Positions 24,858 to 62,185 of a DNA stretch of 64,000 nucleotides are shown here, piece after piece. The stretch lies in NCBI GenBank assembly GCA_021735685.1, contig JAIPGN010000001.1, forward strand, positions 202,678 to 266,677, read 5' to 3'. Positions within the stretch are counted from its first letter, which is position 1, and each line of letters begins with the position of its first letter. The stretch comes from Patescibacteria group bacterium. GTDB lineage: Bacteria; Patescibacteriota; Patescibacteriia; UBA2591; UBA6264. The position numbers and the translations under genes were made by a program. Below the pieces are notes generated by a model. It saw only the letters and a program-made list of their open reading frames with translations, did not search any database and was not told the origin of the DNA.

Positions 24858-25294
24858 AGTTTGGGGGTCGCACCTCCAAACTTTTTGTTTTTAAATTTTA
24901 ATTTTGGTTGTTTGACTAGCATTTTTTCCGCTTTTTTAAATATTTGCTTGACCCAGAGAATGTATTCTTGGTTTTGTTTTTGAGAGATAGTAGCGCCTCC
25001 CCCATAAAGCTCCCAATTTCTTTTGGATCGCATTTCGTTAGCTAAAATTTCTATTTCTGGATCTTGGAGAAAAATAGAAAGTTTTTTTATTAGTTCTATG
25101 TGATGGCCCCTTTTTGATTTCACCCTTAAGTCCTTGATGGCACAAATAGCGATAGCTAATTTTAGGAGAGCGTCATAAGAAAAACGGAAAGAAACTTCCG
25201 GGACATTGGAAGAAAAGGCTATTCTAAAATCTTTTTTAGCAGATTCATAGTAACGGTTTATTTGTTTTTCTGAAAATTTGAACTTTTCAAACAT
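24848..25294 (-). CDS. Hypothetical helical protein, putative partner (HEPN-like?) of the adjacent MNT nucleotidyltransferase
   Basis: Start abuts the stop of the MNT gene. No canonical Rx4-6H HEPN motif was seen. The C-terminal 9 aa are encoded by a palindromic repeat. Confidence 0.35.
   Translation of the reverse strand: MFEKFKFSEKQINRYYESAKKDFRIAFSSNVPEVSFRFSYDALLKLAIAICAIKDLRVKSKRGHHIELIKKLSIFLQDPEIEILANEMRSKRNWELYGGGATISQKQNQEYILWVKQIFKKAEKMLVKQPKLKFKNKKFGGATPKLEK
24858..24883. repeat. P2-like palindrome AGTTTGGGGG-tcgca-CCTCCAAACT
   Basis: Close relative of the AAGTTTGGAGG-n5-CCTCCAAACTT palindromes at 61387, 61664 and 61979. It lies in-frame at the 3' end of the 24848..25294 ORF, encoding KFGGATPKL. 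Confidence 0.6.
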
Positions 25295-27689: not shown

Positions 27690-27783
27690 ATTCTTATTTT
27701 AATTCTTTGTTCATTAAGTGTCAATAGGTGTCAAGGGATTTGGGGGCGAAAAAGTAAATAAAGGGATGGTTAATATTTTTCTG

Positions 27784-27812
27784 TTGACGATAGAAGAGAA
27801 TTTATCTAAAAT
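27784..27812 (+). promoter_or_regulatory. Sigma70-like promoter upstream of ileS (TTGACG, 17 nt, TAAAAT)
   Basis: -35 at 27784-27789 and -10 at 27807-27812. Confidence 0.45.
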
Positions 27813-27855
27813 TAAAAAAGACAAACTTTTATTTATCTATTTATCTATTTTTTTT

Positions 27856-30717
27856 ATGGCTGGAAATACAAACGAAAAAGAAAAAGAGATTTTGAAGTTT
27901 TGGCAAGATAATCAAACTTTCAAAAAATCAATTAGAGATGAAAATTCTTCTAATTTTGTTTTTTACGAAGGTCCGCCAACTGCTAATGCTGCTCCGGGGA
28001 TTCATCATGCTGAAGCTCGTGCTTTTAAAGATGTAATTTGTCGTTACAAGAGCATGAAGGGTTTTCGAGTTTTACGAAAAGCAGGTTGGGATACGCACGG
28101 CTTGCCAGTGGAAATTCAAATCGAAAAAGAACTGGGATTAAAGGATAAAAAGGGGATTGAGAACTATGGTTTAGAGAAATTTAACAAAAAGTGCCGAGAT
28201 TCAGTTTGGCGTTACAAAAAAGATTGGGAAGCCTTAACTAAAAGAATGGGTTATTGGTTGGATATGAATAATCCTTATATTACTTATGAGGATAATTATA
28301 TTGAATCAGTTTGGTGGATTTTAAAGCAAATTTGGGACAAGGGTTTACTTTTTCAAGACTATAAGATTGTTCCTTTCTGCCCGCGTTGTGGAACTACTCT
28401 TTCTAGCCATGAATTAGCGCAAGGCTATCGTTTAGTTAAAGAGCCCTCGGTTTATTTGAAACTTTTAGTGGAAGGTCAAGAAAATACTTATCTTTTGGTT
28501 TGGACTACTACGCCTTGGACCTTGCCGGGTAATGTGGCTGTGGCCGTAAATCCGCACTTAAACTATGTTAAGGTTGAACAAGGAGGAGAAAAATATATTT
28601 TAGCTAAAGACACCTTGGTCTGTTTGGGCGAAGGAGAGCACGAGATTAAGGAAGAATTTCTAGGAAAAGATTTAATTGGGTGGAAATATAAAGCTCCCTA
28701 TGCGGTTAAGCCCGAAAAAAAGGAAAGAATTTATGAAATCCTAGAAGGAGATTTTATTACCTCGGAAGAGGGGACGGGTTTAGTTCATATTGCCCCAGCT
28801 TTTGGTGAGGATGATTATCAATTAATTAAATCACAGGAAAGTCAATTTGCTTTTTTAATGACAGTTGATGGAAAAGGAAATATGAAGACCCCGAATTATG
28901 CTTGGGATCAGATGTTTGTCAAAGAAGCTGACCCTTTAATCATTAAAGACTTAAAAGAAAGAAATATCTTGTTCAGGGAAGAGCTTTATGAACATGATTA
29001 TCCTTTTTGTTGGCGTTGTGACACTCCTTTAATTTATTACGCCCAATCTTCTTGGTTTATTAAAATGACTGAGTTGCGGGAAAAACTAATAGCTAATAAT
29101 GAAAAGATAAATTGGATTCCTCAACACCTGAAAAAGGGACGTTTTGGTGAATGGTTACGCGAAGTTAAAGATTGGAATCTTTCTCGGGAAAGATATTGGG
29201 GTACTCCTTTACCTATTTGGCAATGCGAGAATAAAGAATGTAATCATCAGCAAGTAATTGGTTCAATTCAGGAGTTAAAAGATCTTTCTGGTCAAGATTT
29301 AACTGACCTCCATCGTCCCGCCATTGATGAAGTGATTTTTTCTTGTAAGAAATGTGGTTCAAAAATGCACCGAGTGCCAGAAGTAATTGATTGTTGGTTT
29401 GATTCTGGCTCAATGCCTTTTGCTCAACAACATTATCCTTTTGAAAACAAGGAATTAATTGACCAGGGTCAGGCCTTTCCCGCTGATTTTATTTCCGAAG
29501 GAATTGACCAGACTCGTGGTTGGTTTTATACTCTTTTGGCAATTTCTACTTTATTAGAAAAGGAGCCAGCCTATCGTAATGTAATTACAGTTGGCATTAT
29601 TCTAGATGAAAAGGGGCAGAAGATGTCTAAGTCCAAAGGCAATATTGTGATTCCAAAAGAAGTAATAGAAAAAGTAGGAGCTGATTGCTTGCGTCTCTAT
29701 TTCTATACCCTTAATCAAGTAGATCAATCTAAGAAATTTTCTCAACAAGATTTACAAGACTTGCATCGTAAATTTTTCTTTACCTTAAATAATTGTTTAA
29801 GTTTTTGGAAAATGTACGAAGGCGAAGAAAGCAAACAAGATTTGAATTTAGAAAAAGTAAGTCATGTTTTAGATCGTTGGATTATTTCTCGTTTACAGAG
29901 CGTCATTCAAAAAGTTAACGAAAATATGGATAAATATGACGTGGTTTCTGCAGCTCGTCTTTTTTTGGACTTAGTTGATGATTTGTCTAATTGGTATATT
30001 CGTCGCTCACGTTCTCGGTTCCAAAAACCAAACACTCCCCAAGAAAAAGAAGAGGCGAGTCTGGTTTTGCGCTATTTACTTTTAGAGGTTGCCCGTTTGC
30101 TAGCTCCGTTTACTCCTTTTGTGAGTGAGGAAATTTATCAGATTTTAAAAAAAGAAGAAGATGTAAACAGTATACACTTAACTGACTATCCTCAGGTCCA
30201 AGAAAAATATCCTGATCAAGAGCTAGAGAAAAATATGGCTCAAGTTAAAAACGTGGCCAGTTTGGGTTTGGCCGAAAGGGTTAAGGCCGGAATTAAAGTT
30301 AAGCAACCTCTTTCTCTTTTAAAAGTTTCTGACAAAGAAATAAAAGACTCTTCAGAGTTATTGGATTTGATTAAAGAAGAGATTAATGTAAAGGCAGTGC
30401 AAGTTGATTCAGAATTAAAAGAAGGAGTTTGGTTAGATTTAGAGCTAACTCCCGAGTTAAAAGCCGAAGGGCAAGTGCGAGAAGTGGTGCGAGCAATTCA
30501 ACGCATAAAGAAAGAAGCTGAGGTTTGCCCTCAAGACCAAGTGCAAGTAGCTTATCAAACCGAAGATTTGCAAGAGCTTTTAGAGAAATACCAGGATTTA
30601 ATCAAAAAGGAAACTCGAGTAGAGTTTATTGATTTACAGAAAGGAGAATTTTCCCAAGAAAAGAAAATTAAAATTGATGATAAAGAAATCACTCTTTATT
30701 TAAAGGTTGCGAAATAA
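27856..30717 (+). CDS. ileS: Isoleucyl-tRNA synthetase
   Basis: PGIHHAEARAF is the HIGH-type motif, GWDTHGLPVE is an IleRS signature, and KMSKSKGN is the KMSKS motif. Start chosen at ATG 27856 (MAGNTNEKEKEILKFWQDN); the upstream 46 codons of the track ORF are not IleRS-like. Confidence 0.9.
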   Translation: MAGNTNEKEKEILKFWQDNQTFKKSIRDENSSNFVFYEGPPTANAAPGIHHAEARAFKDVICRYKSMKGFRVLRKAGWDTHGLPVEIQIEKELGLKDKKGIENYGLEKFNKKCRDSVWRYKKDWEALTKRMGYWLDMNNPYITYEDNYIESVWWILKQIWDKGLLFQDYKIVPFCPRCGTTLSSHELAQGYRLVKEPSVYLKLLVEGQENTYLLVWTTTPWTLPGNVAVAVNPHLNYVKVEQGGEKYILAKDTLVCLGEGEHEIKEEFLGKDLIGWKYKAPYAVKPEKKERIYEILEGDFITSEEGTGLVHIAPAFGEDDYQLIKSQESQFAFLMTVDGKGNMKTPNYAWDQMFVKEADPLIIKDLKERNILFREELYEHDYPFCWRCDTPLIYYAQSSWFIKMTELREKLIANNEKINWIPQHLKKGRFGEWLREVKDWNLSRERYWGTPLPIWQCENKECNHQQVIGSIQELKDLSGQDLTDLHRPAIDEVIFSCKKCGSKMHRVPEVIDCWFDSGSMPFAQQHYPFENKELIDQGQAFPADFISEGIDQTRGWFYTLLAISTLLEKEPAYRNVITVGIILDEKGQKMSKSKGNIVIPKEVIEKVGADCLRLYFYTLNQVDQSKKFSQQDLQDLHRKFFFTLNNCLSFWKMYEGEESKQDLNLEKVSHVLDRWIISRLQSVIQKVNENMDKYDVVSAARLFLDLVDDLSNWYIRRSRSRFQKPNTPQEKEEASLVLRYLLLEVARLLAPFTPFVSEEIYQILKKEEDVNSIHLTDYPQVQEKYPDQELEKNMAQVKNVASLGLAERVKAGIKVKQPLSLLKVSDKEIKDSSELLDLIKEEINVKAVQVDSELKEGVWLDLELTPELKAEGQVREVVRAIQRIKKEAEVCPQDQVQVAYQTEDLQELLEKYQDLIKKETRVEFIDLQKGEFSQEKKIKIDDKEITLYLKVAK

Positions 30718-30730
30718 CTGAAAACGTTTA

Positions 30731-30751
30731 CTTGGGAGCCGAGCTTCTAAG
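30731..30751. repeat. Hairpin CTTGGGAGC-cga-GCTTCTAAG (P3 family copy 1)
   Basis: Related to CTTAGGAGC-cga-GCTCCTAAG at 30985-31005. G-U pairs would keep the stem intact in RNA. Confidence 0.5.
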
Positions 30752-30809
30752 TAAATAGTTGTCCACAGGGGAGGGGTTGCTAAAAAATAAAATTTTATTA
30801 AAATAAACT

Positions 30810-30886
30810 ATGGTGCTTGTCACGAACTTCGGTTCTTTGGTTTTCGTAAGGTTCGCCTTTCGTTTACCAAGCAAGCACCATTTTTT
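30810..30886 (+). ncRNA. GGTGCTTG-stem structured element with two internal UUCG-tetraloop hairpins and a T-run (complex terminator or small RNA), copy A
   Basis: ATGGTGCTTG...CAAGCACCAT 10-bp closing stem encloses GAAC-TTCG-GTTC and GTAAGG-TTCG-CCTTTCG, then TTTTTT. It is about 75% identical to the copy at 62983-63059, whose closing-stem bases differ. Confidence 0.4.
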
Positions 30887-30984
30887 ATTTCCGAAAATGG
30901 AATTGTAAGTCGAAAAAATGACGAGAAAAAAGATTTAGCTTGTTAAGCTGCTCAAAACATTTCTGGGCGGCTTCTTTATATCTA

Positions 30985-31005
30985 CTTAGGAGCCGAGCTC
31001 CTAAG
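30985..31005. repeat. Hairpin CTTAGGAGC-cga-GCTCCTAAG (P3 family copy 2)
   Basis: Perfect 9-bp palindrome with a CGA loop in the 390-bp ORF-free region 30718-31106. Confidence 0.5.
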
Positions 31006-31106
31006 AGCTGCCTAGGTCCGACCTCGACAGGAAAGTAAATAAAAAAAAGACGCAAAGAGTAAAATCAAAGCATCTTTTTTATTGATTTAAGTATTTGAAT
31101 TTGTTT

Positions 31107-45483: not shown

Positions 45484-47046
45484 ATGATGGCCAGATTTTC
45501 TAAATTAAAAGGAACAATTACTGGCGGAGCAATGATCATTGCTCTTTTTTCTGTTTTTAGCCGAATTTTAGGTCTTCTCCGAGATAGGTTATTGAGCAGT
45601 AGTTTTGGTGCCGGTCGGGTTTTAGATGCTTATTATGCATCTTTTCGTTTACCCGACTTAATTTTTAATACCCTTATTTTAGGGGCGCTTTCTTCGGCTT
45701 TCATCCCCATCTTTTTAAAATATTGGCAAAAAGATAAAGAAGAGGCCTGGCGAATAACTAATTCGGTTTTAAATATTTTATTACTTATTGTTTTGGGTTT
45801 GGCCACTTTAGCTTTTTTTCTAGCACCGACCTTGATTAGATATTTAGTGCCAGGTTTTGATTTAGAAACTCAGACTTTGACTGTTTCTTTAACTCGGATT
45901 ATGCTGATTGGCATTTTGTTTTTTACTTGCAGCAACATTGCCAGCAGTGTCTTGAATTCTTTTCGTCGTTTTTTAGTTTATAGTTTAGCGCCTTTAATGT
46001 ATAATCTGGGCATTATCTTCGGCATTATGGTTTTAGTGCCTCACACTTCTTTAGGTTTAAAGGGTTTAGCTTGGGGAGTTACTCTAGGAGCAGCTGGACA
46101 TTTTTTGATCCAATTGCCAGCTTTACTAAAAACTGGTTATCGCTGGCAACCGATCATTTCTTCTCATCAAGCTATTAAGAAGATAGTTAAATTAATGCTA
46201 CCTCGTTGTTTCGGCCTAGCAGTGAGTCAATTAAATTTCGTGGTTACCACTTTAGTGGCTTCTACTTTGACGGTGGGAGCGGTAGCAATTTACAGCTTGG
46301 CTTTCAATCTTTTTAATGTCCCTATTGGCATTTTTGGCATTTCTTTAGCTATTGCTATTTTTCCGGTTTTAAGTGGAAGCTTTGCCCAAGGGGATCAAAA
46401 AACCTTTGTTTCTCAAATGTCTAAAACCGTGCAAAGAATTATTTATTTAATTGTTCCGATTACTATTCTTTATTTAAGTTTAAGGGCTCAGATTGTTCGT
46501 TTAATTTTAGGGGCCGGGGTGTTTTCTTGGCGGGATACAGTTTTAACCGCTACTACCTTAGGATTTTTCTCTCTTTCTCTTTTAGCGCAAAGTTTAATTC
46601 CTTTATTTTCCCGTGCCTTTTATTCTTTACATGATACTTTGACCCCAGTTAAAATAGCAGTAGTTAGTTTTGGAGTTAATATTGTTGGCTGTTTTCTTTT
46701 GGGTCGTTGGATTGGAGTAGGGGGATTAGCTTTAGCTTTTTCTTTGGCTTCTTTTATAAATCTAATCTTACTGTATTACTTTTTTCATAAAAAAGCATTA
46801 CCCTTGCCAAACAAAAAGATAAGAATAACATTTTTGCGAGCCTTTGGGCTTTCTGCGATAATGTTAGTAATTGTTCAGCTAAGTAAAGGCTTATTTGGTT
46901 CTTTGGTTAATATGCAAACTTTTGTTGGGGTTTTGATTCAGACTGTTGTTTCAGGTTCAATTGGTCTTTTGTTTTACTTTGTGGCTAGCCTATTTTTGCA
47001 TTTTCCAGAAGTAGACATAATTAAACAATTTTTTAAAAGAAAATAA
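45484..47046 (+). CDS. murJ: Lipid II flippase MurJ (MviN)
   Basis: N-terminal FSRILGLLRDRLLSSSFGAG...DAYYASFRLPDL is characteristic of MurJ. 14 TM segments. Confidence 0.85.
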   Translation: MMARFSKLKGTITGGAMIIALFSVFSRILGLLRDRLLSSSFGAGRVLDAYYASFRLPDLIFNTLILGALSSAFIPIFLKYWQKDKEEAWRITNSVLNILLLIVLGLATLAFFLAPTLIRYLVPGFDLETQTLTVSLTRIMLIGILFFTCSNIASSVLNSFRRFLVYSLAPLMYNLGIIFGIMVLVPHTSLGLKGLAWGVTLGAAGHFLIQLPALLKTGYRWQPIISSHQAIKKIVKLMLPRCFGLAVSQLNFVVTTLVASTLTVGAVAIYSLAFNLFNVPIGIFGISLAIAIFPVLSGSFAQGDQKTFVSQMSKTVQRIIYLIVPITILYLSLRAQIVRLILGAGVFSWRDTVLTATTLGFFSLSLLAQSLIPLFSRAFYSLHDTLTPVKIAVVSFGVNIVGCFLLGRWIGVGGLALAFSLASFINLILLYYFFHKKALPLPNKKIRITFLRAFGLSAIMLVIVQLSKGLFGSLVNMQTFVGVLIQTVVSGSIGLLFYFVASLFLHFPEVDIIKQFFKRK

Positions 47047-47052
47047 GCAAAA

Positions 47053-47199
47053 AATTTCCAGAAAAAATTTGTTCAGCTTCTGCCTAGATCAAACCTAGGT
47101 AAATAATTCCCAAAATGTACGAGGTCGAACCTCGTACGTCGCATGGTTAAGCTGTTCTAGGGGCAAATGTACGAGGTCGAACCTCGTACATGTTTTTTT
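47053..47199 (+). repeat. P1 paired-palindrome element, extended copy B (leader AATTTCCAGAAAAAATTTGT..., then two 25-bp palindromes, then T8)
   Basis: Palindromes at 47115-47139 (one mismatch) and 47167-47191, followed by TTTTTTTT. It lies immediately after the murJ stop. Confidence 0.7.
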
Positions 47200-47754: not shown

Positions 47755-47893
47755 AATTTCTAGAAAAAATTTGTCTAGACTTGTCTAAGCTGGGCTTATC
47801 CAAACAAATGTACGAGGTCGAACCTCGTACATCGCATGGTTAAGCTGTTCTAGAGGCAAATGTACGAGGTCGAACCTCGTACATATTTTTTTT
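47755..47893 (+). repeat. P1 paired-palindrome element, extended copy C
   Basis: Leader AATTTCTAGAAAAAATTTGT..., perfect palindromes at 47808-47832 and 47860-47884, then T9. The 78-bp core is about 97% identical to copy B. Confidence 0.7.
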
Positions 47894-48053: not shown

Positions 48054-49862
48054 ATGAAAAGAGAAAATATTAGAAATTTTTGCATTATTTCTCATGTAGA
48101 TCACGGCAAGTCAACTTTGGCGGATCGTTTTTTAGAAATTACAAATACTGTTGCTAAGGATAAAATCAATCCACAGTACTTAGATCGGATGCCTTTAGAA
48201 CAAGAAAGGGGAATTACAATCAAGTTGCAGCCAGTAACTATGCGTTATCAAGATCAGGGCGAAGGTTATATCCTGAATTTAATTGATACACCTGGCCACG
48301 TTGATTTTTCTTATGAAGTTTCTCGTTCTCTGGCGGCAGTAGAAGGAGCTATTTTGTTAGTTGACGCCGGGCAAGGCATTCAGGCTCAAACTTTAGCTAA
48401 TTTTTATTTAGCTCAAAAACAAGGTTTGAAAATTGTGCCCGTGATTAATAAGGTGGATTTGCCGAATCTAGACCTTGATTCTATTAAAGAAGAGTTGTCA
48501 GATTTAACTGGAGAGCCAGTTTCTGAAATTCTTTGTATTTCTGCTAAAACTGGTCAAGGGGTTGCAGAGCTTTTAAAGAAAGTAATTGATAAAGTGCCAG
48601 CTCCTTTAATTAATAAAGGTCAGGATTCTTCTTTATCTGCTTTAATTTTTGATTCATATTTTGATGAATATAAGGGAGTGGTAGCTTTTGTGCGAGTCTT
48701 TCAGGGTTTAGTGGAGGCGGAAAAGAAAATTAAATTTATGAGCAATCAAGTTGAATCAATTGCTTTGCAGGTTGGTTTATTTCGTCCAGATTTAACTCCT
48801 CAAGAAACTTTGGCTGCTGGAGAAATTGGTTATATTGTGACTGGCTTAAAAGACATTAGTAAGTGTCGAGTAGGTGATACTATTTTTTTGGCCGGGCAAG
48901 AAACGAAGATTTGTCCCGGTTATCAAGAGCCGCAACCCATGGTTTTTGCTGGAATTTATCCTCAGGATGGTAGCAAGCAAGGTAAACTAAGAAAAGCCTT
49001 AGACAAATTAAAACTCAACGATGCCAGTTTAATTTTTGAGCCGGAAGATTCTTCTGCTTTAGGGCCAGGATTTCGAGCTGGTTTTTTAGGATTGCTTCAC
49101 CTAGATATTGTCCGAGAAAGGCTGAAAAGGGAATATGGCATGAATTTAGTGATCACGCCACCAAGCGTTTCTTATCAGGTTTTCTTAGAAGGGAAGGAGA
49201 TGGAAGTAATCAAAAGCCCTAGCGCTTTTCCTGATCCTTCTCAGATAAAAGAGATTAAGGAGCCTTGGGTGAAAATAGATATTGTTTCTCCGCAGAAATA
49301 TTTTGGGCCTTTAATGGAATACATTGAAAGTTTAGGTAAAGCTCAATTTATTTCTTTAGAATATATAAAATCTTCTCAAAAAGAAAAAAGAGGCTTAATT
49401 CATTATGAAGCTCCTTTATCTTTACTCTTGGTTGATTTTTATGATAAAATAAAGGGGTTAAGTCGGGGTTATGCTTCTTATAGTTATCAGTTTTTAGAAT
49501 ATCGTTTGGCGGATGTAGCTAAGTTAGATATTTTGGTAGCTGGTGATCCAGTAGAACAATTAGCTACCATAGTTTATCGCGATCAAGCCTATTTTTCCGG
49601 TCGGCGTATTGTCAAAAAATTAAAGGAAATTCTTCCTCGGCAGATGTTTGAGATTAAGGTTCAAGCTGCGATTGGAGGCAAAATTTTAGCTTCAGAGAAA
49701 ATCTCTGCTTTAAGGAAAAACGTCACCGCTGGTTTATACGGAGGAGACGTTAGTCGAAAGCAAAAATTACTAAAAAAACAAAAGAAAGGTAAAAAGAAAA
49801 TGGAGCAATTGGGGAAAGTCAATATTCCTCCCGAGGCTTATTTGGCGACAATGTCTAAATAA
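48054..49862 (+). CDS. lepA: Elongation factor 4 (LepA)
   Basis: NIRNFCIISHVDHGKSTLADR is the G1 motif, DTPGHVDF is G3, NKVD is G4, plus a LepA-specific C-terminal domain. Confidence 0.95.
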   Translation: MKRENIRNFCIISHVDHGKSTLADRFLEITNTVAKDKINPQYLDRMPLEQERGITIKLQPVTMRYQDQGEGYILNLIDTPGHVDFSYEVSRSLAAVEGAILLVDAGQGIQAQTLANFYLAQKQGLKIVPVINKVDLPNLDLDSIKEELSDLTGEPVSEILCISAKTGQGVAELLKKVIDKVPAPLINKGQDSSLSALIFDSYFDEYKGVVAFVRVFQGLVEAEKKIKFMSNQVESIALQVGLFRPDLTPQETLAAGEIGYIVTGLKDISKCRVGDTIFLAGQETKICPGYQEPQPMVFAGIYPQDGSKQGKLRKALDKLKLNDASLIFEPEDSSALGPGFRAGFLGLLHLDIVRERLKREYGMNLVITPPSVSYQVFLEGKEMEVIKSPSAFPDPSQIKEIKEPWVKIDIVSPQKYFGPLMEYIESLGKAQFISLEYIKSSQKEKRGLIHYEAPLSLLLVDFYDKIKGLSRGYASYSYQFLEYRLADVAKLDILVAGDPVEQLATIVYRDQAYFSGRRIVKKLKEILPRQMFEIKVQAAIGGKILASEKISALRKNVTAGLYGGDVSRKQKLLKKQKKGKKKMEQLGKVNIPPEAYLATMSK

Positions 49863-50878: not shown

Positions 50879-50950
50879 TAGCAGGAGCGGGGATCGAACC
50901 CGCGACATGTGCCTTATGAAGACACCGCTCTGCCACTGAGCTATCCTGCC
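50879..50950 (-). tRNA. tRNA with CAU anticodon (elongator Met or Ile2/lysidine type)
   Basis: Reverse complement GGCAGGA-TA-GCTC-AGTGGCA-GAGC-G-GTGTC-TTCATAA-GGCAC-ATGTC-GCGGG-TTCGATC-CCCGC-TCCTGCT-A forms a cloverleaf with a G1-U72 wobble, a CAT anticodon and no encoded CCA. Confidence 0.8.
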
Positions 50951-50951
50951 A

Positions 50952-51026
50952 TGGTTGCGGGGACAGGATTCGAACCTGTATCCTCCAGGTTATGGGCCTG
51001 GCGAGCTGCCATTGCTCTACCCCGCG
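50952..51026 (-). tRNA. tRNA-fMet-like (CAU anticodon, C1:A72 mismatch, encoded CCA)
   Basis: Reverse complement CGCGGGG-TA-GAGC-AATGGCA-GCTC-G-CCAGG-CCCATAA-CCTGG-AGGAT-ACAGG-TTCGAAT-CCTGT-CCCCGCA-A-CCA. The unpaired C1/A72 is an initiator hallmark. One nucleotide separates it from the next tRNA. Confidence 0.8.
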
Positions 51027-57232: not shown

Positions 57233-57515
57233 TTTTTTTGGATTGACAAAAGGTCAATTTTGTGATATCTTGATGATATAAGAATGAATAAATTATTAGT
57301 TTAATTTAAAAAAATGGAATTTAAAAAATTAAGTCATCAGGAGAAAGAAGAAGAGCAAGAAGCTTTAATTGCTCGAGAAGAAGAGGAGGAGGAAGAAAAT
57401 GAAGAAGCTTTAATTGCTGAAGAAGAGGCCGAAGAAAAAGAGGAGAGAAAAAGAAAAAAAGCTTTATTTTATAAAAAGATTAAAAAAGACAAAGAACAAG
57501 ATTAGCTTTAACTAT

Positions 57516-60500
57516 ATGGAAATGTCTAAAAAAAATAACAAACCTGAGGAAAAAAAGGCAACAGGTGAAACTAAAGAAGGAAGTAGCTATGAAGCTCAGA
57601 TAAAAAAAGCAGAAAATATTGATGCTTTAATGGCAACTTTAGATGATATTCCTAATTTTTTTGAGGAAGAAAATGAGGATAAAGCTAAAGAAGAATTTAA
57701 GGAAAAATTTGAAATTCTTAAAAAAGAAGTTGAGGCTCGTAAAGAAGATGAAGACGTCGTTGAATATGGCGGCTTTAATTTTTTTACTACAGAATATGGA
57801 TTAAGAAGCAAGATAAGAGAGCTGTTATTGGGAGAAAGCTTTAAAGATGAAATAGAAAATAAAGACGCAGAAGAACAAGAAACAGAAAAGGAGAAAGCAA
57901 ATAATGAAAAAGAAGAAGAGAGAAAAAAAAGGGAAAAAGAGGCTCTAGAAAAGAAAGCTGAGGAAAAAGAAATGCTTTATTCTACTAAAATTGATTTAAT
58001 GGAAGATCTTGATGATAATGAAAAGAAAGAATTAAAAGATAAGGTAAGATTTGTTAATAAAGAAAAAGTAGCTGAAGAGTGTCAAGGAGATTTTGAGGAA
58101 TTGTTAAAATTGTCTGCCCAAGAGGAAGGGGAGATAGTTAAAAAGAAAAAAGAAGACAAAGATGAGAAAGTTGAAGAAGGTAAAGAGGAAGAGGAGAGTG
58201 AAGAGCAAATAGAAATTGATCTTGAAGGATTACCAACAGAAGGGGAAGGTAAGTATCAGGAAAAAATAAAAGAAATGAGCGAGAAATTAGATTTACCTGA
58301 GGAAGAAATTGAGCAAATTGTTAACCAACAAAAAGCTAATTTAGTTGAATTAACAGCTCAGAAATCTAAAAAGAAAGAAAAGAAATGGAAGAAAATAGGC
58401 AAAACTTTGGGAATTTATGCGGTTCTTGGCGGCGGCTTAGGTTTATTAACTGGTGGCTTAGGCATTGGTATTGGTCTTGCGGCCGGAAGAATCATTGATA
58501 CTATTTTTAAAGGAAAGAAAACTAAAAAGGATCAAGAAAAGGCCCAACAAGAAGTTAATGCCATTTTATTAAAAACCAAAGAGGCTGAAGGAGAAGCCGA
58601 TAAAGAAGAAGACGAAGGCACGAAAAGTGTTTTGGATTCTTTTTATGATAATATTTTTACTGAATTGTCTTTGGCTAAGCGCAATCAAATCGAGGGCCAG
58701 AATAAAGAAAAGAGTGAGCTTGGAAAAAAAATTTCTAAACTAGAAGAAAGTTATCGCCCAGAAGATAAAGAAAAATTAGCAGAACTTTATCAAACGAGAA
58801 GGGAACAGCAAAAAGAAAAAATCCAAGATTATTTAATGGCAAAGGGCTTAGAAGGAGAAGAATTAGAAAAAAGAGTGAAATTGTCAGCTCAGTTAGTAGA
58901 ATTAGATGATAATCAAAAAATAATGGAACTTGATTTTGCTAAACGCAAGGCCAGTAAAGTCGCTAAGATCTTTAGCAAACTAGATTCAATTTTAAGTCAT
59001 CCTGCTCTTTTGGGTGGAGCCAAGCAGGCAGAGAGCCAAAATAAAGAAAAGATAATTACTGCTAGTATTTTTGCAGTAGCTGGTGTTTTGGCTCGTTCTT
59101 GCCCAATAGTTAGGAATGTTTTAATGGCTTATGCGGGTATGAAATTAGGCTCTGCTGCCGCTGATTTAATGTTTGGAAAAAACAAAGAACTAAGAGAGGT
59201 TTCTGGCGAACAGCTTAGCCTAGAAAGCAGCGTTGAGGACCTTAATCGAGCTAAGGCCCAACTTTTAGACCCTAAATATAAAGAAAAAAATCCTTTAGAA
59301 CATGCTAAATTACAAGAAAAAATATTTGCTATTGATCGTGCCAGAATGGAGAAAGCCTTAGGAAAGACAGAGGCAACAGAGAGGGAAGATGAGGAGGCTG
59401 AAGGTGAAAAAATTGAAACTGATTCAGAGGAAGAGAAGATAGAGGTAAAAGAAGAAGAGGAAATAAAAGAAGCTGTAGAGGAAAAATATGGTTACATTGT
59501 TCAGGCCAACCAAGAATTAGAAGAAGCAATTAAAAAAAGAAGAGCAGCTCAGGGAGCACATAAAGGAATGAAAATATTTTTAGGAATAGCTGGCGGAGTA
59601 GCAGGTTGGTTTTTGGGAGAATATATGAATAAGCAAAATGAGGCTAAGGAAGCAGAGAAGGCCCAAGCAAAGAAATTAGAAGAAACGCAAAAAGATTTTC
59701 CTAAAGAAAATGTTAATAATGAAACTCCTCTTGACAAGCAAATAAAAATGTCAGCTGCCGAATTAGAAGCGCAAGAAAAGGAGCTGGCTCGAATTGAAGC
59801 AGAAAGAAGAATGGCTGAACTTAATAAGCCCGTTGTAGTAGAAAAGGGAGATACGGTTTGGGGAGTGTGCGAAAAGCAATTAGAAGAAAGAGTAGATAAT
59901 TGGGAAGAATTAAGCCAGGCGGAAAAAGATTATTTGATTGATTGGTATAAAGATAAAGTAGTGGCTAATCCCGCAGAGTATGGAATTGATGGTGGTAATG
60001 CCAGTTCTTTAAAAATTGGCTCGGAAATTAAAGTTGCTAATTTATTTAAAGATCAGGGTGAAATGGTTAAAGCTTTAGCTAAAGCACAGGGCTTAAGTAC
60101 GGAACAAGTCCAAAATATTATGAATAATCGAGAATTGATTGGTAATGTTATGAGTCAAAAATTAGAAGAAGTTCCCGGAGATAAATTATTAGAAGCAGTG
60201 CGAGTGATGGGCGGAACTGATCAAGCGGGGGCTGGCTTTGTGGCTGAAGTTGAAAAAAGAGCCACTGAGGTTTTAGGGGAAGCTGTTACTTCTGATCAAA
60301 CTCAAACTATATTAAATAATCCTGAGGTTTTTGGGAAAATAATGGATTCTGGGGTTGAGAGTCTTGAAGAAGTGGAAAATGAAACTTTGGGTCAAGCCTT
60401 TAGGCTGCTTAAGAATACTGATAGCGTGGGCAAAGAATTACTTCAAGAGGCTCAAGAAGTAGAAGGAGCGATAGGAGAAGAGTTAGTAGAAAGAGCTAGT

Positions 60501-61001
60501 GGTAGTTGGGAAAGGATTAAGAATATTATCGGTGGAGACCCCTATGACAATCAATTTCATGCTGGTTATGACATTGACCCTAATAAGCCCTTGATGAGCG
60601 TTTATCAGAATGATTGGATATCTCAAAAAGCTGACGAGGCTTTAAGTAAAGGAGATGAATTAATTAGTCAAGCTGAAAAAATGCAGGAATTGATTGGCAA
60701 GAGTGACTCTTGGTGGCATAAACTTTGGGGTATTGAGGGTAAAATTGAAAAATTAAAAGACACCTTTGATCAAAATACTGACATCTTTAATCAGGTGAAA
60801 GAAACTTACTATAATGGTTGGCAGCAAGGAAAATCTTCGGCTCAAGAATGGTTTAATCTAACCGGAGATAAAAAGATTCTTGGTGATTATTTTGGAGGAG
60901 ATTTTTTCGAAAAAAATAACTCTCTTTTGAGCGAAAAAATATCAAAATTACAAGAATTAATTAACCAACTAGGCAGTCGATATAGCAATGGAGCAGTATA
61001 A
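57516..61001 (+). CDS. Large (~1160 aa) E/K-rich coiled-coil membrane protein with glycine-zipper TM segments and a C-terminal LysM-like domain, hypothetical
   Basis: Start chosen at ATG 57516 (MEMSKK). Low-complexity charged N-terminal ~300 aa; TM GIYAVLGGGLGLLTGGLGIGIGLAAG; two further hydrophobic segments; VVVEKGDTVWGVCEKQ...IGSEIKV is LysM-like; the C-terminal ~350 aa is globular. Confidence 0.55.
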   Translation: MEMSKKNNKPEEKKATGETKEGSSYEAQIKKAENIDALMATLDDIPNFFEEENEDKAKEEFKEKFEILKKEVEARKEDEDVVEYGGFNFFTTEYGLRSKIRELLLGESFKDEIENKDAEEQETEKEKANNEKEEERKKREKEALEKKAEEKEMLYSTKIDLMEDLDDNEKKELKDKVRFVNKEKVAEECQGDFEELLKLSAQEEGEIVKKKKEDKDEKVEEGKEEEESEEQIEIDLEGLPTEGEGKYQEKIKEMSEKLDLPEEEIEQIVNQQKANLVELTAQKSKKKEKKWKKIGKTLGIYAVLGGGLGLLTGGLGIGIGLAAGRIIDTIFKGKKTKKDQEKAQQEVNAILLKTKEAEGEADKEEDEGTKSVLDSFYDNIFTELSLAKRNQIEGQNKEKSELGKKISKLEESYRPEDKEKLAELYQTRREQQKEKIQDYLMAKGLEGEELEKRVKLSAQLVELDDNQKIMELDFAKRKASKVAKIFSKLDSILSHPALLGGAKQAESQNKEKIITASIFAVAGVLARSCPIVRNVLMAYAGMKLGSAAADLMFGKNKELREVSGEQLSLESSVEDLNRAKAQLLDPKYKEKNPLEHAKLQEKIFAIDRARMEKALGKTEATEREDEEAEGEKIETDSEEEKIEVKEEEEIKEAVEEKYGYIVQANQELEEAIKKRRAAQGAHKGMKIFLGIAGGVAGWFLGEYMNKQNEAKEAEKAQAKKLEETQKDFPKENVNNETPLDKQIKMSAAELEAQEKELARIEAERRMAELNKPVVVEKGDTVWGVCEKQLEERVDNWEELSQAEKDYLIDWYKDKVVANPAEYGIDGGNASSLKIGSEIKVANLFKDQGEMVKALAKAQGLSTEQVQNIMNNRELIGNVMSQKLEEVPGDKLLEAVRVMGGTDQAGAGFVAEVEKRATEVLGEAVTSDQTQTILNNPEVFGKIMDSGVESLEEVENETLGQAFRLLKNTDSVGKELLQEAQEVEGAIGEELVERASGSWERIKNIIGGDPYDNQFHAGYDIDPNKPLMSVYQNDWISQKADEALSKGDELISQAEKMQELIGKSDSWWHKLWGIEGKIEKLKDTFDQNTDIFNQVKETYYNGWQQGKSSAQEWFNLTGDKKILGDYFGGDFFEKNNSLLSEKISKLQELINQLGSRYSNGAV

Positions 61002-61042: not shown

Positions 61043-61363
61043 ATGAATGAAGAAAAAAATCCAACAGAAGCTTTTGCTGATAGCTTGATTCAGCAAGCCA
61101 ATATTACTCTCCCAGAAGAAGAATTGGAAGTTTATCGCAATAAATTAATGCAGCAGATTGAAAAAAGATTAGGTTTAATATCCTTAGATGCCTTAGATGA
61201 TAAAGGTTTAGAGGATTATGAAAAATTATTAGGAGAAAATCCAGACCCGAATGATCCTCAAGTGCGAGATTTTTTTAGCTCTCGAATTGAAAATTACGAA
61301 GAAAAAATTAAAGAAGCTTTAGATAATTTTAAGGCCGAATTTCTTTCTGCTTTAAATAAATAA
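61043..61363 (+). CDS. Hypothetical acidic helical protein (106 aa)
   Basis: ORF with reasonable context downstream of the large protein. No motif recognised. Confidence 0.4.
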   Translation: MNEEKNPTEAFADSLIQQANITLPEEELEVYRNKLMQQIEKRLGLISLDALDDKGLEDYEKLLGENPDPNDPQVRDFFSSRIENYEEKIKEALDNFKAEFLSALNK

Positions 61364-61386
61364 AATCTTAAAGCTATTTCTGAAAA

Positions 61387-61413
61387 AAGTTTGGAGGCTG
61401 AACCTCCAAACTT
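61387..61413. repeat. P2 palindrome AAGTTTGGAGG-ctgaa-CCTCCAAACTT (copy 1, loop in inverted orientation)
   Basis: Perfect 11-bp arms. The CTGAA loop is the reverse complement of the TTCAG loop in copies 2 and 3. It lies 60 nt upstream of the transposase-like ATG. Confidence 0.7.
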
Positions 61414-61474
61414 TTTCGTTCCTTTTTTTAAAATTATTTCAAAATATGTTTATAATGATTATAATAAAAAACAT

Positions 61475-62185
61475 ATGAGCAAAAGAAAGGTTCAATTTAT
61501 TAATGATGAGTATTATCACGTCTATAATCGAGGAGTTGATAAGAGAATAGTTTTTGAGTCTTCAGAAGATTTAGAAAGATTCTTTTTAAGTATGCAAGAG
61601 TTTAACGATATAAATCCTATTGGCAGCATTTATGAGGAAAAATTAATCAAAAATAGAATAGAAAAGTTTGGAGGTTCAGCCTCCAAACTTTCAGCCTCTG
61701 ATTTTTCCCCGAAAGAAAAGGAGAAATTAGTAGAATTCATTTGTTATAATTTATTGCCAAATCATTATCATTTTTTTCTGAAGCAATTAGTAGATAATGG
61801 GATTCAGAAATTTATGCATAGAATATCAACGGGCTATACGGGATTTTTTAACAGGAAAAATAAGCGCAACGGTTCTTTGTTTCAAGGCAGATATAAAGCA
61901 ATTCATGTTAATTCTAATGAGTATTTGTTGCACTTAAGCACATATATTAATCTTAATCACCAGGTACATAATTTAGAAAAGTTTGGAGGTTCAGCCTCCA
62001 AACTTTTTAAATCTAGTTGGAGAGAATATTTAGGGCAGGATCAAAAAGAAATTTGCGCTAAGGATATTATTTTAGATCAATTTGACTCTAGTAATAATTA
62101 TCAAAAATTTAGCGAAGAAGGTTTAGAAAGAATTAAGGAGAGCAAAGAAATTCAAAAATATTTATTAGAGGAATTAAATAATTAA
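61475..62185 (+). CDS. IS200/RAYT-like HuH (Y1) transposase-family protein with two in-frame palindrome-encoded inserts
   Basis: YHVYNRGVDKRIVF (beta1), LLPNHYHFFL (HuH-type HxH motif) and SLFQGRYKAIHVNSNEYLLHLSTYINLNH (Y-containing helix) are colinear with the Y1 transposase/TnpA_REP fold. The sequence EKFGGSASKL occurs twice and is encoded by P2 palindromes. Start chosen at ATG 61475. Confidence 0.55.
   Translation: MSKRKVQFINDEYYHVYNRGVDKRIVFESSEDLERFFLSMQEFNDINPIGSIYEEKLIKNRIEKFGGSASKLSASDFSPKEKEKLVEFICYNLLPNHYHFFLKQLVDNGIQKFMHRISTGYTGFFNRKNKRNGSLFQGRYKAIHVNSNEYLLHLSTYINLNHQVHNLEKFGGSASKLFKSSWREYLGQDQKEICAKDIILDQFDSSNNYQKFSEEGLERIKESKEIQKYLLEELNN
61664..61690. repeat. P2 palindrome AAGTTTGGAGG-ttcag-CCTCCAAACTT (copy 2, inside the transposase-like CDS)
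   Basis: Perfect arms. Translated in-frame as KFGGSASKL. Confidence 0.7.
61979..62005. repeat. P2 palindrome AAGTTTGGAGG-ttcag-CCTCCAAACTT (copy 3, inside the transposase-like CDS)
   Basis: Identical to copy 2 and 315 bp downstream of it. It is translated in the same frame as copy 2. Confidence 0.7.

What the first reader, a model, noticed from the sequence alone, without database searches (positions are those of the whole stretch)
61387..62185. 27-bp perfect palindromes sit upstream of and in-frame within a HuH/IS200-RAYT-like transposase gene
The palindrome AAGTTTGGAGG-n5-CCTCCAAACTT occurs three times within 620 bp. One copy is 60 nt upstream of the transposase-like ATG with its loop inverted. 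Two identical copies lie inside the CDS, 315 bp apart, each translated as EKFGGSASKL. They bracket the segment encoding the HuH motif (NHYHFF) and the tyrosine helix. REP/MITE-like hairpins are classically found flanking RAYT/IS200 genes as their substrates, not inside the coding frame. Either the gene is a decayed or mosaic element overrun by its own REPs, or the hairpins are tolerated in-frame inserts, or they mark excisable segments. A near-identical palindrome (GTTTGGGGG-tcgca-CCTCCAAAC at 24858-24883) also supplies the in-frame C-terminal tail KFGGATPKL of an unrelated gene.
Basis: seen in the sequence. Interest (0 to 1): 0.75.

Follow-up and report, generated by a model that had tools for sequence, protein, structure and literature searches.

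The report
In-frame palindromes in a transposase-like gene
A transposase-like gene of a tiny uncultured bacterium carries its own DNA hairpin upstream and twice in-frame inside the coding sequence, and hundreds of related genes do the same with gene-specific hairpins kept alike, which extends a rarely reported arrangement rather than founding a new one.

Summary
GTTTGGAGG-n5-CCTCCAAAC occurs at 61389-61411 (intergenic, loop inverted), 61666-61688 and 61981-62003 (in-frame, both EKFGGSASKL), with a one-mismatch copy at 24859-24881. None is expected by chance.

The gene (61475-62185) is an intact Y1 HUH, RAYT-like gene of Patescibacteria (Pfam Y1_Tnp; best fold match 4ER8).

This is a family trait, not a local accident. 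In 82 homologous genes, a gene-specific palindrome sits at up to four fixed places:
- about 40 nt before the start
- two in-frame sites bracketing the HUH and Tyr motifs
- just after the stop

Copies within a gene match in 60-77% of cases, against 2-3% between genes. Stems covary. Loops flip freely unless the flip would create a stop codon. G.T mismatches show no strand bias, and U-tracts are rare. The signal is therefore at DNA level.

The in-frame peptides lie in poorly predicted loops. A syntenic orthologue has a different hairpin at the first two sites. Solitary copies occur elsewhere, some in-frame in other genes.

Best reading: these are cognate REP-like hairpins, tolerated in permissive loops and repeatedly overwritten. 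In-frame REPs inside RAYT genes were reported once before (TnpAY1 subclass 2.4), so this is a new variant of a known kind.

The parts
61384..61416 (.). H0: intergenic copy of the palindrome, AAAAAGTTTGGAGG-ctgaa-CCTCCAAACTTTTT. It has a 14-bp stem and its loop is inverted relative to H1/H2. It lies 20 nt after the stop of the DUF5663 gene (61043-61363) and upstream of a promoter-like site at 61427-61456.
   Evidence: An equivalent upstream copy is present in 76 of 80 homologous genes. In the orthologue L081 the same position holds a different hairpin.
61475..62185 (+). Intact gene for a 236-aa Y1 HUH, RAYT-like (REP-associated tyrosine transposase-like) protein.
   Evidence: ORF. Pfam Y1_Tnp scores 31.3 bits against a cut-off of 23. 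There are 1358 homologues, and those that a source names are Patescibacteria. The profile finds 889 cluster representatives at E<=1e-30. The AF2 model has pLDDT 75, and its top Foldseek PDB match is 4ER8, E. coli TnpA-REP bound to a REP hairpin.
61663..61691 (+). H1: in-frame palindrome with a 12-bp stem and loop TTCAG. It encodes K64-L72 (KFGGSASKL) in the loop between helix A and the HUH strand.
   Evidence: Residues 51-81 have pLDDT below 50. A perfect stem of at least 8 bp occurs at this site in 51 of 82 homologues, against 4 of 167 control CDS windows.
61760..61771 (+). Codons for the HUH motif N96-H97-Y98-H99.
   Evidence: Sequence. N96, H97 and H99 are invariant in alignment A1.
61943..61945 (+). 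Codon of Tyr157, the presumed catalytic tyrosine (family motif Y-[VI]-N-L-N).
   Evidence: Sequence. Y157, N159 and N161 are invariant in A1.
61977..62007 (+). H2: in-frame palindrome with a 13-bp stem and loop TTCAG. It encodes K169-L177 just after the tyrosine helix, and is followed by TTTTT.
   Evidence: The 10-residue blocks covering the peptide have mean pLDDT 74 and 67. A stem of at least 8 bp occurs at this site in 53 of 82 homologues. It is retained, with one G.T mismatch, in the orthologue L081.
24858..24883 (.). Solitary copy of the same hairpin family, GTTTGGGGG-tcgca-CCTCCAAAC, with one G.T mismatch. It encodes the extra C-terminal tail KFGGATPKLEK of the minus-strand ORF 24848-25294.
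   Evidence: None of the 10 homologues aligned carries the tail, and the listed homologues are shorter than the 148-aa query.
30984..31006 (.). Solitary copy of a second hairpin family, ACTTAGGAGC-cga-GCTCCTAAG. This is the hairpin found at the H0 and H1 sites of the orthologous gene in L081. A degenerate second copy lies at 30727-30753, just after the stop of the 999-aa ORF 27718-30717.
   Evidence: compared.

Best explanation
The palindromes are the cognate REP-like DNA hairpins of a vertically inherited, RAYT-like Y1 HUH nuclease gene. That gene belongs to a large Patescibacteria clade.

In this clade each gene is associated with its own hairpin sequence, placed at up to four fixed positions:
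- about 40 nt upstream of the start
- in-frame in the loop before the HUH strand
- in-frame in the loop after the catalytic-tyrosine helix
- just after the stop codon

Each in-frame copy is about 27 nt (9 codons) and is always in one codon phase. Both lie in poorly ordered loops, so the protein tolerates whatever peptide the hairpin dictates.

All copies of one gene are kept alike by repeated DNA-level overwriting, in either orientation. Orientation is fixed only where a flipped loop would create a stop codon.

Shown here: the architecture, the covariation, the concerted evolution, the DNA-level (not RNA-level) signature, the replacement of hairpins at fixed positions between orthologues, and the existence of solitary copies elsewhere, some in-frame in other genes.

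Inferred, not shown: that the encoded Y1 enzyme itself binds these hairpins in single-stranded DNA and cuts and rejoins at their feet. Hairpin cassettes would then be exchanged among sites. Once a hairpin occupies a permissive loop, that site would remain a preferred target and be renewed rather than lost.
For: Gene identity:
- Pfam Y1_Tnp above its cut-off.
- Fold nearest to 4ER8, then IS608 and ISDra2 TnpA.
- HUH residues and Tyr157 invariant.

Fixed four-site architecture:
- Locus-specific hairpins seen at the four positions.
- Of 80 genes: H0 76, H1 53, H2 52, H3 60, and all four in 25.
- Perfect stems of at least 8 bp: 51/82 and 53/82 at the two coding sites, against 4/167 control coding windows.

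Gene-specific hairpins, concerted evolution:
- The inner 6-nt arm is identical between sites of one gene in 60-77% of cases, against 2.0-3.5% between genes.
- Same-genome paralogues are 57-76% identical as proteins. They carry different arms in 8 of 9 pairs and differ only in the loop in the ninth.

Covariation in 68 in-frame hairpins:
- 90.5% paired, against 75.4% in shuffles.
- 140 double-sided changes, against 39.
- Covariation score 0.476, against 0.181; 0 of 500 shuffles reached it.
- Slid controls scored 0.05-0.12.

DNA-level signature:
- Loops are identical or exact reverse complements. Flanking copies have random orientation: H0 31 inverted/27 same, H3 22/22.
- Where a flip would create an in-frame stop, H1 and H2 share orientation in 10 of 10 loci. 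Where a flip is allowed, 12 are the same and 8 inverted. The loop centre is always at codon position 2.
- G.T and A.C mismatches on the sense strand number 28 and 28.
- A T-tract follows only 2 of 80 H0 and 3 of 61 H3 copies.

Permissive location:
- H1 peptide in a segment with pLDDT below 50; H2 peptide in blocks of mean pLDDT 74 and 67.
- The encoded peptides vary widely between homologues.

Replacement at fixed positions:
- The syntenic orthologue L081 (70% protein identity, same neighbours) has ACTTAGGAGC hairpins at H0 and H1 but keeps the window-type hairpin at H2.
- A copy of that other hairpin also exists in the window at 30984.

Dispersal:
- Solitary copies lie 6-30 nt after stop codons or in-frame in other ORFs.
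- The hairpin-encoded tail at 24859 is absent from all 10 homologues aligned.
- Of 36 metagenomic contigs carrying the orthologue's hairpin, 32 show no RAYT-like gene in the DNA held.

Precedent: each tnpAREP has its own REP family, and in-frame REPs occur within subclass 2.4 genes (PMC6006769).
Against: - No biochemical evidence links this protein to these hairpins.
- The hairpins lack the 5' GT[AG]G guide tetranucleotide of canonical REPs.
- Copy number away from the gene is low. The window has one further copy in 64 kb. The 1.04 Mb of flanks hold 34 further copies, many of them arrays just upstream of the gene. Classical REP proliferation is therefore not seen.
- The protein falls far below the NCBIfam RAYT equivalog cut-off (25.9 against 80 bits). 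Its Y motif lacks the class-2 proline.
- About a third of genes lack a good hairpin at H1 or H2, so the in-frame copies are dispensable.
- Ordinary gene conversion or template switching between nearby palindromes could homogenise the copies without the enzyme.
- The window's own gene has no downstream copy.
Confidence: 0.65

Rival explanations
1. Passive passengers. The hairpins are ancient REP insertions in permissive loops. They are kept alike only by host processes, such as RecA-type gene conversion, replication template switching or cruciform processing between nearby palindromes. The encoded enzyme plays no part and the cell gains nothing.
For: - The copies lie within about 0.8 kb of each other, and their palindromic arms allow pairing in either orientation. 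This alone predicts the loop flips.
- About 35% of genes have lost a good hairpin at H1 or H2 while the ORF stays intact.
- The peptides lie in disordered loops.
Against: - Arms of 9-14 bp are very short substrates for homologous recombination (general knowledge).
- Perfect stems of up to 18 bp or more persist at the same codons in genes that share only 45-70% protein identity with the window's gene.
- In the orthologue, the hairpins at H0 and H1 were replaced by a different family that also exists as solitary copies. That requires import from elsewhere, not only local homogenisation.
- The hairpin sequence differs between same-genome paralogues. This is the pattern established for RAYT and REP pairs (PMC6006769).
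Confidence: 0.22
2. Self-directed switch. The in-frame copies are selected cis-sites that let the nuclease act on its own gene. One form would be excision or deletion of the 315-bp H1-H2 segment, which encodes the catalytic core. Another would be autoregulatory binding at the hairpins. Either would give a self-limiting system.
For: - H1 and H2 are direct, in-phase repeats bracketing the HUH and Tyr motifs, in the window and across the family.
- One 86%-identical gene fragment in L001 stops exactly at the 3' end of H1.
- In-frame copies are retained almost as often as flanking copies: 62-65% against 78-81%.
Against: - No H1-H2 deletion form appeared among the 120 closest homologues or the 150 best profile hits. 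The short proteins listed match contiguous parts of the profile, not 1-65 joined to 170-222.
- Many genes have only one of the two in-frame hairpins.
- H1 and H2 differ in the orthologue L081, which would prevent a precise repeat-to-repeat event.
Confidence: 0.08
3. RNA-level elements. The hairpins act in the transcript as intrinsic terminators, attenuators or mRNA stabilisers.
For: - The window's H0 is flanked by A6 and T5 and follows a stop codon by 20 nt. The consensus scan scored H0 on the plus strand and H1 on the minus strand as terminator-like.
- H2 is followed by TTTTT.
- REPs are known to affect 3' ends of transcripts (PMC3733652).
Against: - Across the family a T-tract follows only 2/80 H0, 0/51 H1, 0/52 H2 and 3/61 H3 copies.
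- There is no excess of G.U-compatible over A.C mismatches on the sense strand: 28 against 28.
- Loop orientation of flanking copies is random.
- H0 in the window lies upstream of the gene's promoter-like site.
- No Rfam family matches.
Confidence: 0.04
4. Protein-level repeat. The duplicated peptide (KFGGSASKL) is selected for a function in the protein, and the palindromy is a by-product.
For: - Both copies encode the same peptide, and the outer residues (K/x-F/L-G ... K-L) recur in homologues.
Against: - Non-coding copies upstream and downstream carry the same nucleotide sequence.
- Peptides differ widely between homologues (KFRSSAPKL, KLRSSASQ, MRGSASH, LGHSMSK) while base pairing is preserved.
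- The H1 peptide lies in a segment with pLDDT below 50.
Confidence: 0.01

Closest known systems
REPtrons: RAYT/TnpA-REP genes flanked by their cognate REPs (E. coli yafM, PDB 4ER8; Nunvar 2010, Ton-Hoang 2012, Bertels & Rainey 2011, from my own knowledge; Quentin et al. 2018, PMC6006769)
   Same: - Y1 HUH protein whose best fold match is 4ER8.
- Low-copy, divergent paralogues, each with its own palindrome.
- Palindromes flank the gene.
- Vertical inheritance, shown by synteny with the orthologue.
- Solitary copies near the 3' ends of genes.
   Different: - No GT[AG]G guide tetranucleotide; the conserved part is the outer stem ACTTGG...CCAAGT.
- Perfect short hairpins without bulges.
- Very low genomic copy number.
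- Y motif is Y[VI]NLN without the proline.
- A roughly 60-aa C-terminal extension.
- Two extra copies at fixed in-frame sites.
TnpAY1 subclass 2.4 (Bertels group 4; Cyanobacteria/Bacteroidetes): REPs inserted in-frame within tnpAREP genes (PMC6006769, Fig. S10)
   Same: - The gene's own REPs occur both flanking it and inside its coding sequence without breaking the frame.
- The hairpins are symmetrical ('double foot'-like).
- The insertions are predicted to be peripheral to the fold.
   Different: [quoted passage not shown] Here there are two sites outside that interval, before HUH and after Y, conserved across the clade.
- Motifs differ: NH[IFV]H/WQ/YIxNNP there, NHYH/FQG/Y[VI]NLN here.
- The foot sequence differs: GT[AG]G...C[TC]AC there, (CC)ACTTGG...CCAAGT(GG) here.
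- Concerted evolution, loop flipping and replacement at fixed positions are not described in the sections of that paper read here.
TnpAY1 subclass 2.1 (Bertels group 1, 'TIRYT')
   Same: Closest motif set and size in the published table: NH[YF]H, FQ, Y[IV]HLNP, an SS motif in the tail, and a median length of 238 aa.
   Different: No REP-like sequences were found for that subclass, by automatic or manual search. Some members are flanked by terminal inverted repeats instead. Membership was judged only from the published motif table, not from a tree.
Intragenic REPs and Rickettsia palindromic elements (Ogata 2000, from my own knowledge; Di Nocera 2013, PMC3733652)
   Same: Palindromic repeats inserted in-frame in functional genes and tolerated in loops or termini. 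The window's tail at 24859 and the in-ORF copies in L010, L017, L033 and L054 fit this pattern.
   Different: - RPEs are longer (about 100-150 bp, from my own knowledge), and no associated transposase is known for them.
- Insertions there are scattered, not at sites conserved across a gene family.
IS200/IS605 insertion sequences
   Same: Y1 HUH transposase fold, and hairpins near the ends of the gene that are recognised as single-stranded DNA.
   Different: - No near-identical copies: same-genome paralogues are 57-76% identical.
- No tnpB or any other conserved neighbour.
- The position is syntenic between species.
- All copies share one perfect palindrome, rather than distinct imperfect left-end and right-end hairpins.

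Membership tests
RAYT / TnpA-REP (Y1 HUH, class 2) | Y1_Tnp domain and fold | tested here: met
   Pfam PF01797 scores 31.3 bits against a cut-off of 23. The top Foldseek PDB hit is 4ER8 at E=1.1e-4, prob 1.00, followed by IS608 and ISDra2 TnpA. A sequence profile alone found no PDB chain.
RAYT / TnpA-REP (Y1 HUH, class 2) | HUH motif plus a single catalytic Tyr | tested here: met
   N96, H97, H99 and Y157 are invariant in 32 sequences.
RAYT / TnpA-REP (Y1 HUH, class 2) | Class-2 Y motif Y-x-x-x-N-P (PMC6006769) | tested here: not met
   The window has Y157-I-N-L-N161-H162 and the family consensus is Y[VI]NLN. More distant paralogues in the fetched loci of related genomes do have YIHLNP.
RAYT / TnpA-REP (Y1 HUH, class 2) | NCBIfam equivalog NF047646 cut-off | tested here: not met
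   25.9 bits against a cut-off of 80. Only residues 77-162 match.
RAYT / TnpA-REP (Y1 HUH, class 2) | Gene flanked by its own palindromes (REPtron) | tested here: met
   Across the family an upstream copy is present in 76 of 80 genes and a downstream copy in 60 of 80. In the window only the upstream copy is present.
RAYT / TnpA-REP (Y1 HUH, class 2) | REP with a 5' GT[AG]G tetranucleotide at the foot | tested here: not met
   The foot is (CC)ACTTGG...CCAAGT(GG), or AAGTTTGG in the window.
RAYT / TnpA-REP (Y1 HUH, class 2) | Cognate REPs dispersed in many intergenic copies | tested here: inconclusive
   The window has one further copy in 64 kb. The 1.04 Mb of flanks hold 34 further copies, many in arrays next to the gene. 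Solitary copies of the orthologue's hairpin occur on 32 of 36 metagenomic contigs. No complete genome could be scanned.
RAYT / TnpA-REP (Y1 HUH, class 2) | Low-copy, divergent paralogues, each with its own palindrome, inherited vertically | tested here: met
   Nine same-genome pairs are 57-76% identical. Eight have different arms and the ninth differs in its loop. Synteny is conserved with the 70%-identical orthologue.
RAYT / TnpA-REP (Y1 HUH, class 2) | Sequence-specific cleavage and rejoining of REP single-stranded DNA | not testable with these tools
   This needs biochemistry.
TnpAY1 subclass 2.4 (in-frame REPs in tnpAREP) | REPs inside the gene without breaking the frame | tested here: met
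TnpAY1 subclass 2.4 (in-frame REPs in tnpAREP) | [quoted passage not shown] | tested here: not met
   H1 lies before HUH (residues 64-72 against 96-99). H2 lies after Tyr157 (residues 169-177).
TnpAY1 subclass 2.4 (in-frame REPs in tnpAREP) | Motifs NH[IFV]H / WQ / YIxNNP and double-foot GT[AG]G...C[TC]AC REPs | tested here: not met
   The window and family have NHYH / FQG / Y[VI]NLN. The foot is ACTTGG...CCAAGT.
IS200/IS605 insertion sequence | Several near-identical copies per genome, often with tnpB | tested here: not met
   Paralogues are 57-76% identical. No neighbour family occurs in more than 8 of 82 loci. The window has a single copy.
Intrinsic terminator | G+C-rich hairpin followed by a U-tract | tested here: not met
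   The window's H0 and H2 fit. Across the family only 2/80, 0/51, 0/52 and 3/61 copies have a T-tract.

The most novel reading that the evidence does not exclude
The two in-frame hairpins are not passengers. They are selected cis-sites through which the Y1 nuclease processes its own gene. They would make the catalytic core (H1 to H2) a cassette that can be exchanged, deleted or restored. Alternatively they would serve as protected master copies from which the gene's hairpin family is renewed. Either way this would be a self-referential nuclease and substrate unit conserved across Patescibacteria.
Probability: 0.12. Interest if true: 0.85.

Novelty: new variant of a known kind. Interest (0 to 1): 0.55.

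Why it matters
How REPs spread, and why RAYTs are kept, is still unresolved; the dissemination pathway is described as unknown in PMC8266576.

This clade offers a compact natural experiment:
- There are only a few hairpin copies per gene.
- They sit at fixed, alignable positions, two of them under coding constraint.
- Turnover between orthologues can be seen directly.

That makes hairpin replacement, orientation flipping and protein-hairpin co-evolution measurable from sequence alone. It also names a small protein and a 27-nt substrate for biochemistry.

The result extends the RAYT and REP association to Patescibacteria. The literature searches made here found no description of it in that group.

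For annotation, it explains several recurring artefacts in these genomes:
- odd 9-residue 'repeats' within proteins
- spurious N-terminal extensions, as in P0021
- hairpin-encoded C-terminal tails

Tried and rejected
- **Chance match.** Rejected: 0 matches expected in shuffles.
- **Site at 44261** (2 mismatches, inside an unrelated ORF). Judged a chance match.
- **Known RNA family.** Nothing at the locus at E<=1 worth keeping. At gathering score the whole window yields only two tRNAs.
- **Sequence-profile search of the PDB.** No hit. The fold search was needed.
- **Conserved operon partner.** None found. The largest neighbour cluster occurs in 8 of 82 loci.
- **Genome-wide census.** It gave only indirect evidence of solitary copies. 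Some hits belong to an unrelated, longer inverted repeat in contigs of 45-49% G+C.
- **H1-H2 deletion alleles.** Looked for by protein length. None was seen, but this is a weak test.
- **Intrinsic-terminator and mRNA-structure readings.** Rejected at family level.
- **Literature on RAYTs in Patescibacteria.** The word search returned only unrelated microbiome papers.
- **Membership of TnpAY1 subclasses.** Judged only from the published motif table. No tree was built.
Full report
**1. The observation**

The pattern GTTTGGAGG-n5-CCTCCAAAC occurs exactly three times, at 61389-61411, 61666-61688 and 61981-62003. It occurs once more with one mismatch at 24859-24881. Dinucleotide-preserving shuffles of the window gave none.

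With their A/T extensions the perfect stems are 14, 12 and 13 bp. Each folds far better than shuffled sequence, at -18.6 to -20.4 kcal/mol.

The upstream loop CTGAA is the reverse complement of the internal TTCAG. The internal copies are 315 bp apart and both encode EKFGGSASKL inside the ORF 61475-62185. They bracket the NHYH codons (61760-61771) and the Tyr157 codon (61943-61945).

The copy at 24859 encodes the last residues, KFGGATPKLEK, of the minus-strand ORF 24848-25294. That ORF has 163 homologues. The ones listed are shorter (119-143 aa against 148), and all 10 that were aligned end before this tail. So the hairpin does supply a lineage-specific C-terminal extension.

**2. The gene**

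The 236-aa product matches Pfam Y1_Tnp above its cut-off. It matches the NCBIfam RAYT model only weakly.

It has 1358 homologues, and those that a source names are Patescibacteria. A profile finds 889 cluster representatives at E<=1e-30 among 1.84 billion.

An AlphaFold model (pLDDT 75) is closest to 4ER8, E. coli TnpA-REP bound to a REP hairpin. IS608 and ISDra2 TnpA follow. The HUH residues and Tyr157 are invariant.

The nearest orthologue (P0002, 70% identity) lies in the same gene order: an 1169-aa protein, DUF5663, this gene, then a methyltransferase. The gene is therefore inherited vertically in this lineage and is not a recent insertion.

**3. A family trait**

The protein alignment shows K-F-G-x-x-x-x-K-L-like peptides at both positions in nearly all homologues. 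The two peptides co-vary within each protein. Examples are KFRSSAPKL twice in P0010, KFSGSATEL twice in P0012, and KLRSSASQ twice in P0023.

I fetched 80 homologous loci from GTDB genomes and scanned 82 genes, counting a second gene in L061 and the window's own. Nearly every gene carries its own palindrome at up to four fixed places:
- H0, 30-60 nt before the start
- H1, at about +170 to +200
- H2, at about +440 to +500
- H3, just after the stop

Of the 80 genes in which a hairpin could be defined, H0 is present in 76, H1 in 53, H2 in 52, H3 in 60, and all four in 25.

In a test that does not select on hairpins, perfect stems of at least 8 bp occur at H1 in 51 of 82 genes and at H2 in 53 of 82. 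Control coding windows show them in 4 of 167.

More distant paralogues, 29-40% identical and of the YIHLNP type, also have their own hairpins at H0 and H3, and often at the H1 position. None has one at H2.

**4. Structure and evolution of the hairpins**

The outer stem is conserved (ACTTGG...CCAAGT). The inner 3-4 base pairs and the loop differ between genes, with pairing preserved.

On 68 in-frame hairpins:
- 90.5% of cells pair, against 75.4% in shuffles.
- There are 140 double-sided changes, against 39.
- The covariation score is 0.476 against 0.181; 0 of 500 shuffles reach it.
- Slid controls score 0.05-0.12.

Within a gene, the inner arm is identical between any two sites in 60-77% of cases. 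Between genes the figure is 2.0-3.5%.

Paralogues in one genome are 57-76% identical. They have different arms in 8 of 9 pairs, and the ninth pair differs only in its loop. The hairpin therefore goes with the gene, not the genome. This is the rule established for RAYT and REP pairs (PMC6006769).

**5. DNA level, not RNA or protein**

- Loops are either identical or exact reverse complements. Flanking copies have random orientation relative to H2: H0 31 inverted/27 same, H3 22/22.
- The centre of every in-frame hairpin is at codon position 2. A 3-nt loop is one codon in 85 of 87 cases, and 5-nt loops are in phase 2 in 16 of 16.
- Where the flipped loop would create a stop (TTA to TAA, TCA to TGA, or the window's TTCAG to C-TGA-A), H1 and H2 share orientation in 10 of 10 loci. 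Where a flip is allowed, 12 are the same and 8 inverted.
- On the sense strand, G.T and A.C mismatches are equally frequent, 28 against 28.
- T-tracts after the stem are rare: 2/80, 0/51, 0/52 and 3/61. The window's H0, with A6/T5 flanks 20 nt after a stop codon, is an exception that may double as a terminator.
- Non-coding copies share the nucleotide sequence of the coding ones, which excludes a purely protein-level repeat.

**6. Tolerance in the protein**

The H1 peptide (K64-L72) lies in a segment with pLDDT below 50 (residues 51-81). The H2 peptide (K169-L177) falls in two 10-residue blocks of mean pLDDT 74 and 67, after the tyrosine helix. The H1 loop is also the most length-variable part of the alignment.

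**7. Turnover**

The syntenic orthologue L081 has ACTTAGGAGC-cga/tcg-GCTCCTAAGT at two upstream sites and at H1. One of the upstream sites follows the DUF5663 stop exactly as in the window. At H2, L081 keeps the window-type hairpin AAAAGTTTGGGGG-gcagg-CCTCCAAACTTTT. The coding sequence around H2 is highly conserved, while the H1 region is replaced and shortened.

The window itself holds a solitary ACTTAGGAGC-cga copy at 30984-31006 and a degenerate one at 30727-30753. Hairpins are therefore replaced at fixed positions from families that also exist elsewhere in the genome.

Three further signs of turnover:
- P0018 has a tandem extra copy at H2.
- Several loci have arrays of copies upstream.
- L001 holds an 86%-identical gene fragment that stops exactly at the 3' end of H1.

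**8. Dispersal**

Beyond the four sites, the 1.04 Mb of flanks hold 34 copies. Some lie 6-30 nt after stop codons. Some are in-frame in other ORFs (L010, L017, L033, L054).

A metagenome scan for the orthologue's hairpin found 36 contigs. Only 4 show a RAYT-like gene in the DNA held. In 35 of 41 copies the stem extends beyond the 9 bp searched for, mostly by the A...T pair of the family consensus. A subset belongs to an unrelated longer repeat.

Copy number is thus low but not zero. No complete genome could be scanned.

**9. Interpretation**

The best-supported reading has four parts:
- The palindromes are the cognate REP-like hairpins of a RAYT-like Y1 nuclease.
- They are arranged as a compact REPtron.
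- Two copies are embedded in-frame in permissive loops.
- All copies are kept alike by repeated DNA-level overwriting.

The step that the encoded enzyme performs this overwriting, by cutting and rejoining at hairpin feet in single-stranded DNA, is inferred from the family's known chemistry. It was not shown here. Host gene conversion or template switching is the main rival.

A self-directed switch, such as excision of the catalytic core, remains possible but has only one anecdotal support.

**10. Comparison with what is known**

Intragenic in-frame REPs are known in various genes, and in Rickettsia as RPEs (PMC3733652). Quentin et al. [quoted passage not shown]

The present clade differs in five ways:
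- The motifs (NHYH, FQG, Y[VI]NLN, SSW tail) are nearest to subclass 2.1, for which no REPs were found.
- The foot sequence has no GT[AG]G.
- There are two sites outside the HUH-to-Y interval, conserved across the clade.
- It shows concerted evolution, flipping and replacement, documented here.
- Its host group is Patescibacteria.

I file it as a new variant of a known kind.

Noticed in passing
window 3961-4037, 47117-47191, 47808-47884: A third hairpin family, ATGTACGAGGT-tcg/cga-ACCTCGTACAT, occurs six times as three doublets about 50 bp apart. The copy at 3961 is in reverse orientation. All are intergenic. The first starts 7 nt after the stop of a 350-aa ORF (2902-3954) that I read as RecA-like. 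The other two flank a 155-aa hypothetical ORF, between a 520-aa ORF (45484-47046) and a 602-aa ORF (48054-49862) that I read as MurJ-like and LepA-like. These gene names rest on reading the translations only; no search was run. The doublets look like REPIN/MITE-like elements of about 77 bp, and each can fold as one long hairpin (-39 kcal/mol, z -6 to -8). No cognate Y1 gene lies in the window.
   Followed up: partly
window 30806-30884: A strongly structured 79-nt segment (-29.1 kcal/mol, z -5.9) lies between the two ACTTAGGAGC-type hairpins, in the intergenic region after the 999-aa ORF 27718-30717, which I read as isoleucyl-tRNA synthetase from its translation only. It has no Rfam match at gathering score. 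It may be a small RNA.
   Followed up: partly
window 24848-25840 (minus strand): A two-gene pair: a nucleotidyltransferase with an N-terminal wHTH (Pfam Polbeta/NTP_transf_2), followed by a 148-aa protein with no Pfam hit. It looks like an MNT/HEPN-type toxin-antitoxin pair. That reading rests on gene order and my own knowledge and was not tested. The second gene carries the hairpin-encoded tail.
   Followed up: partly
L081 5839-5900: The 8-nt unit GTGAATCA is repeated about eight times in tandem in the enlarged intergenic region upstream of the orthologous gene. It is absent from the window.
   Followed up: no
L001 14731-14940: An 86%-identical fragment of the RAYT-like gene, 8.8 kb downstream of the intact copy. 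It runs from the promoter region to exactly the 3' end of the H1 hairpin, so the truncation is bounded by the hairpin.
   Followed up: partly
L017 5602-9947: Two tandem ORFs of about 715 aa. Each is preceded by a copy of the locus hairpin right after the previous stop codon. Each contains a second, in-frame copy about 85 nt into the ORF.
   Followed up: no
L002 1312-2004: One gene carries two hairpin families at once. The flanking copies are TTGAGAGGC-type and both in-frame copies are GTTTGGACAC-type. Homogenisation therefore does not always span all four sites.
   Followed up: no
window 57414-61001: An 1195-aa Lys/Glu-rich ORF with hydrophobic segments lies upstream of the DUF5663 gene. A 1169-aa gene without Pfam hits occupies the same position in the orthologous locus.
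   Followed up: no
window 50879-51026 (minus strand): Two adjacent tRNA genes are the only Rfam gathering-level matches in the 64-kb window. The window's G+C content is 33.8%.
   Followed up: no
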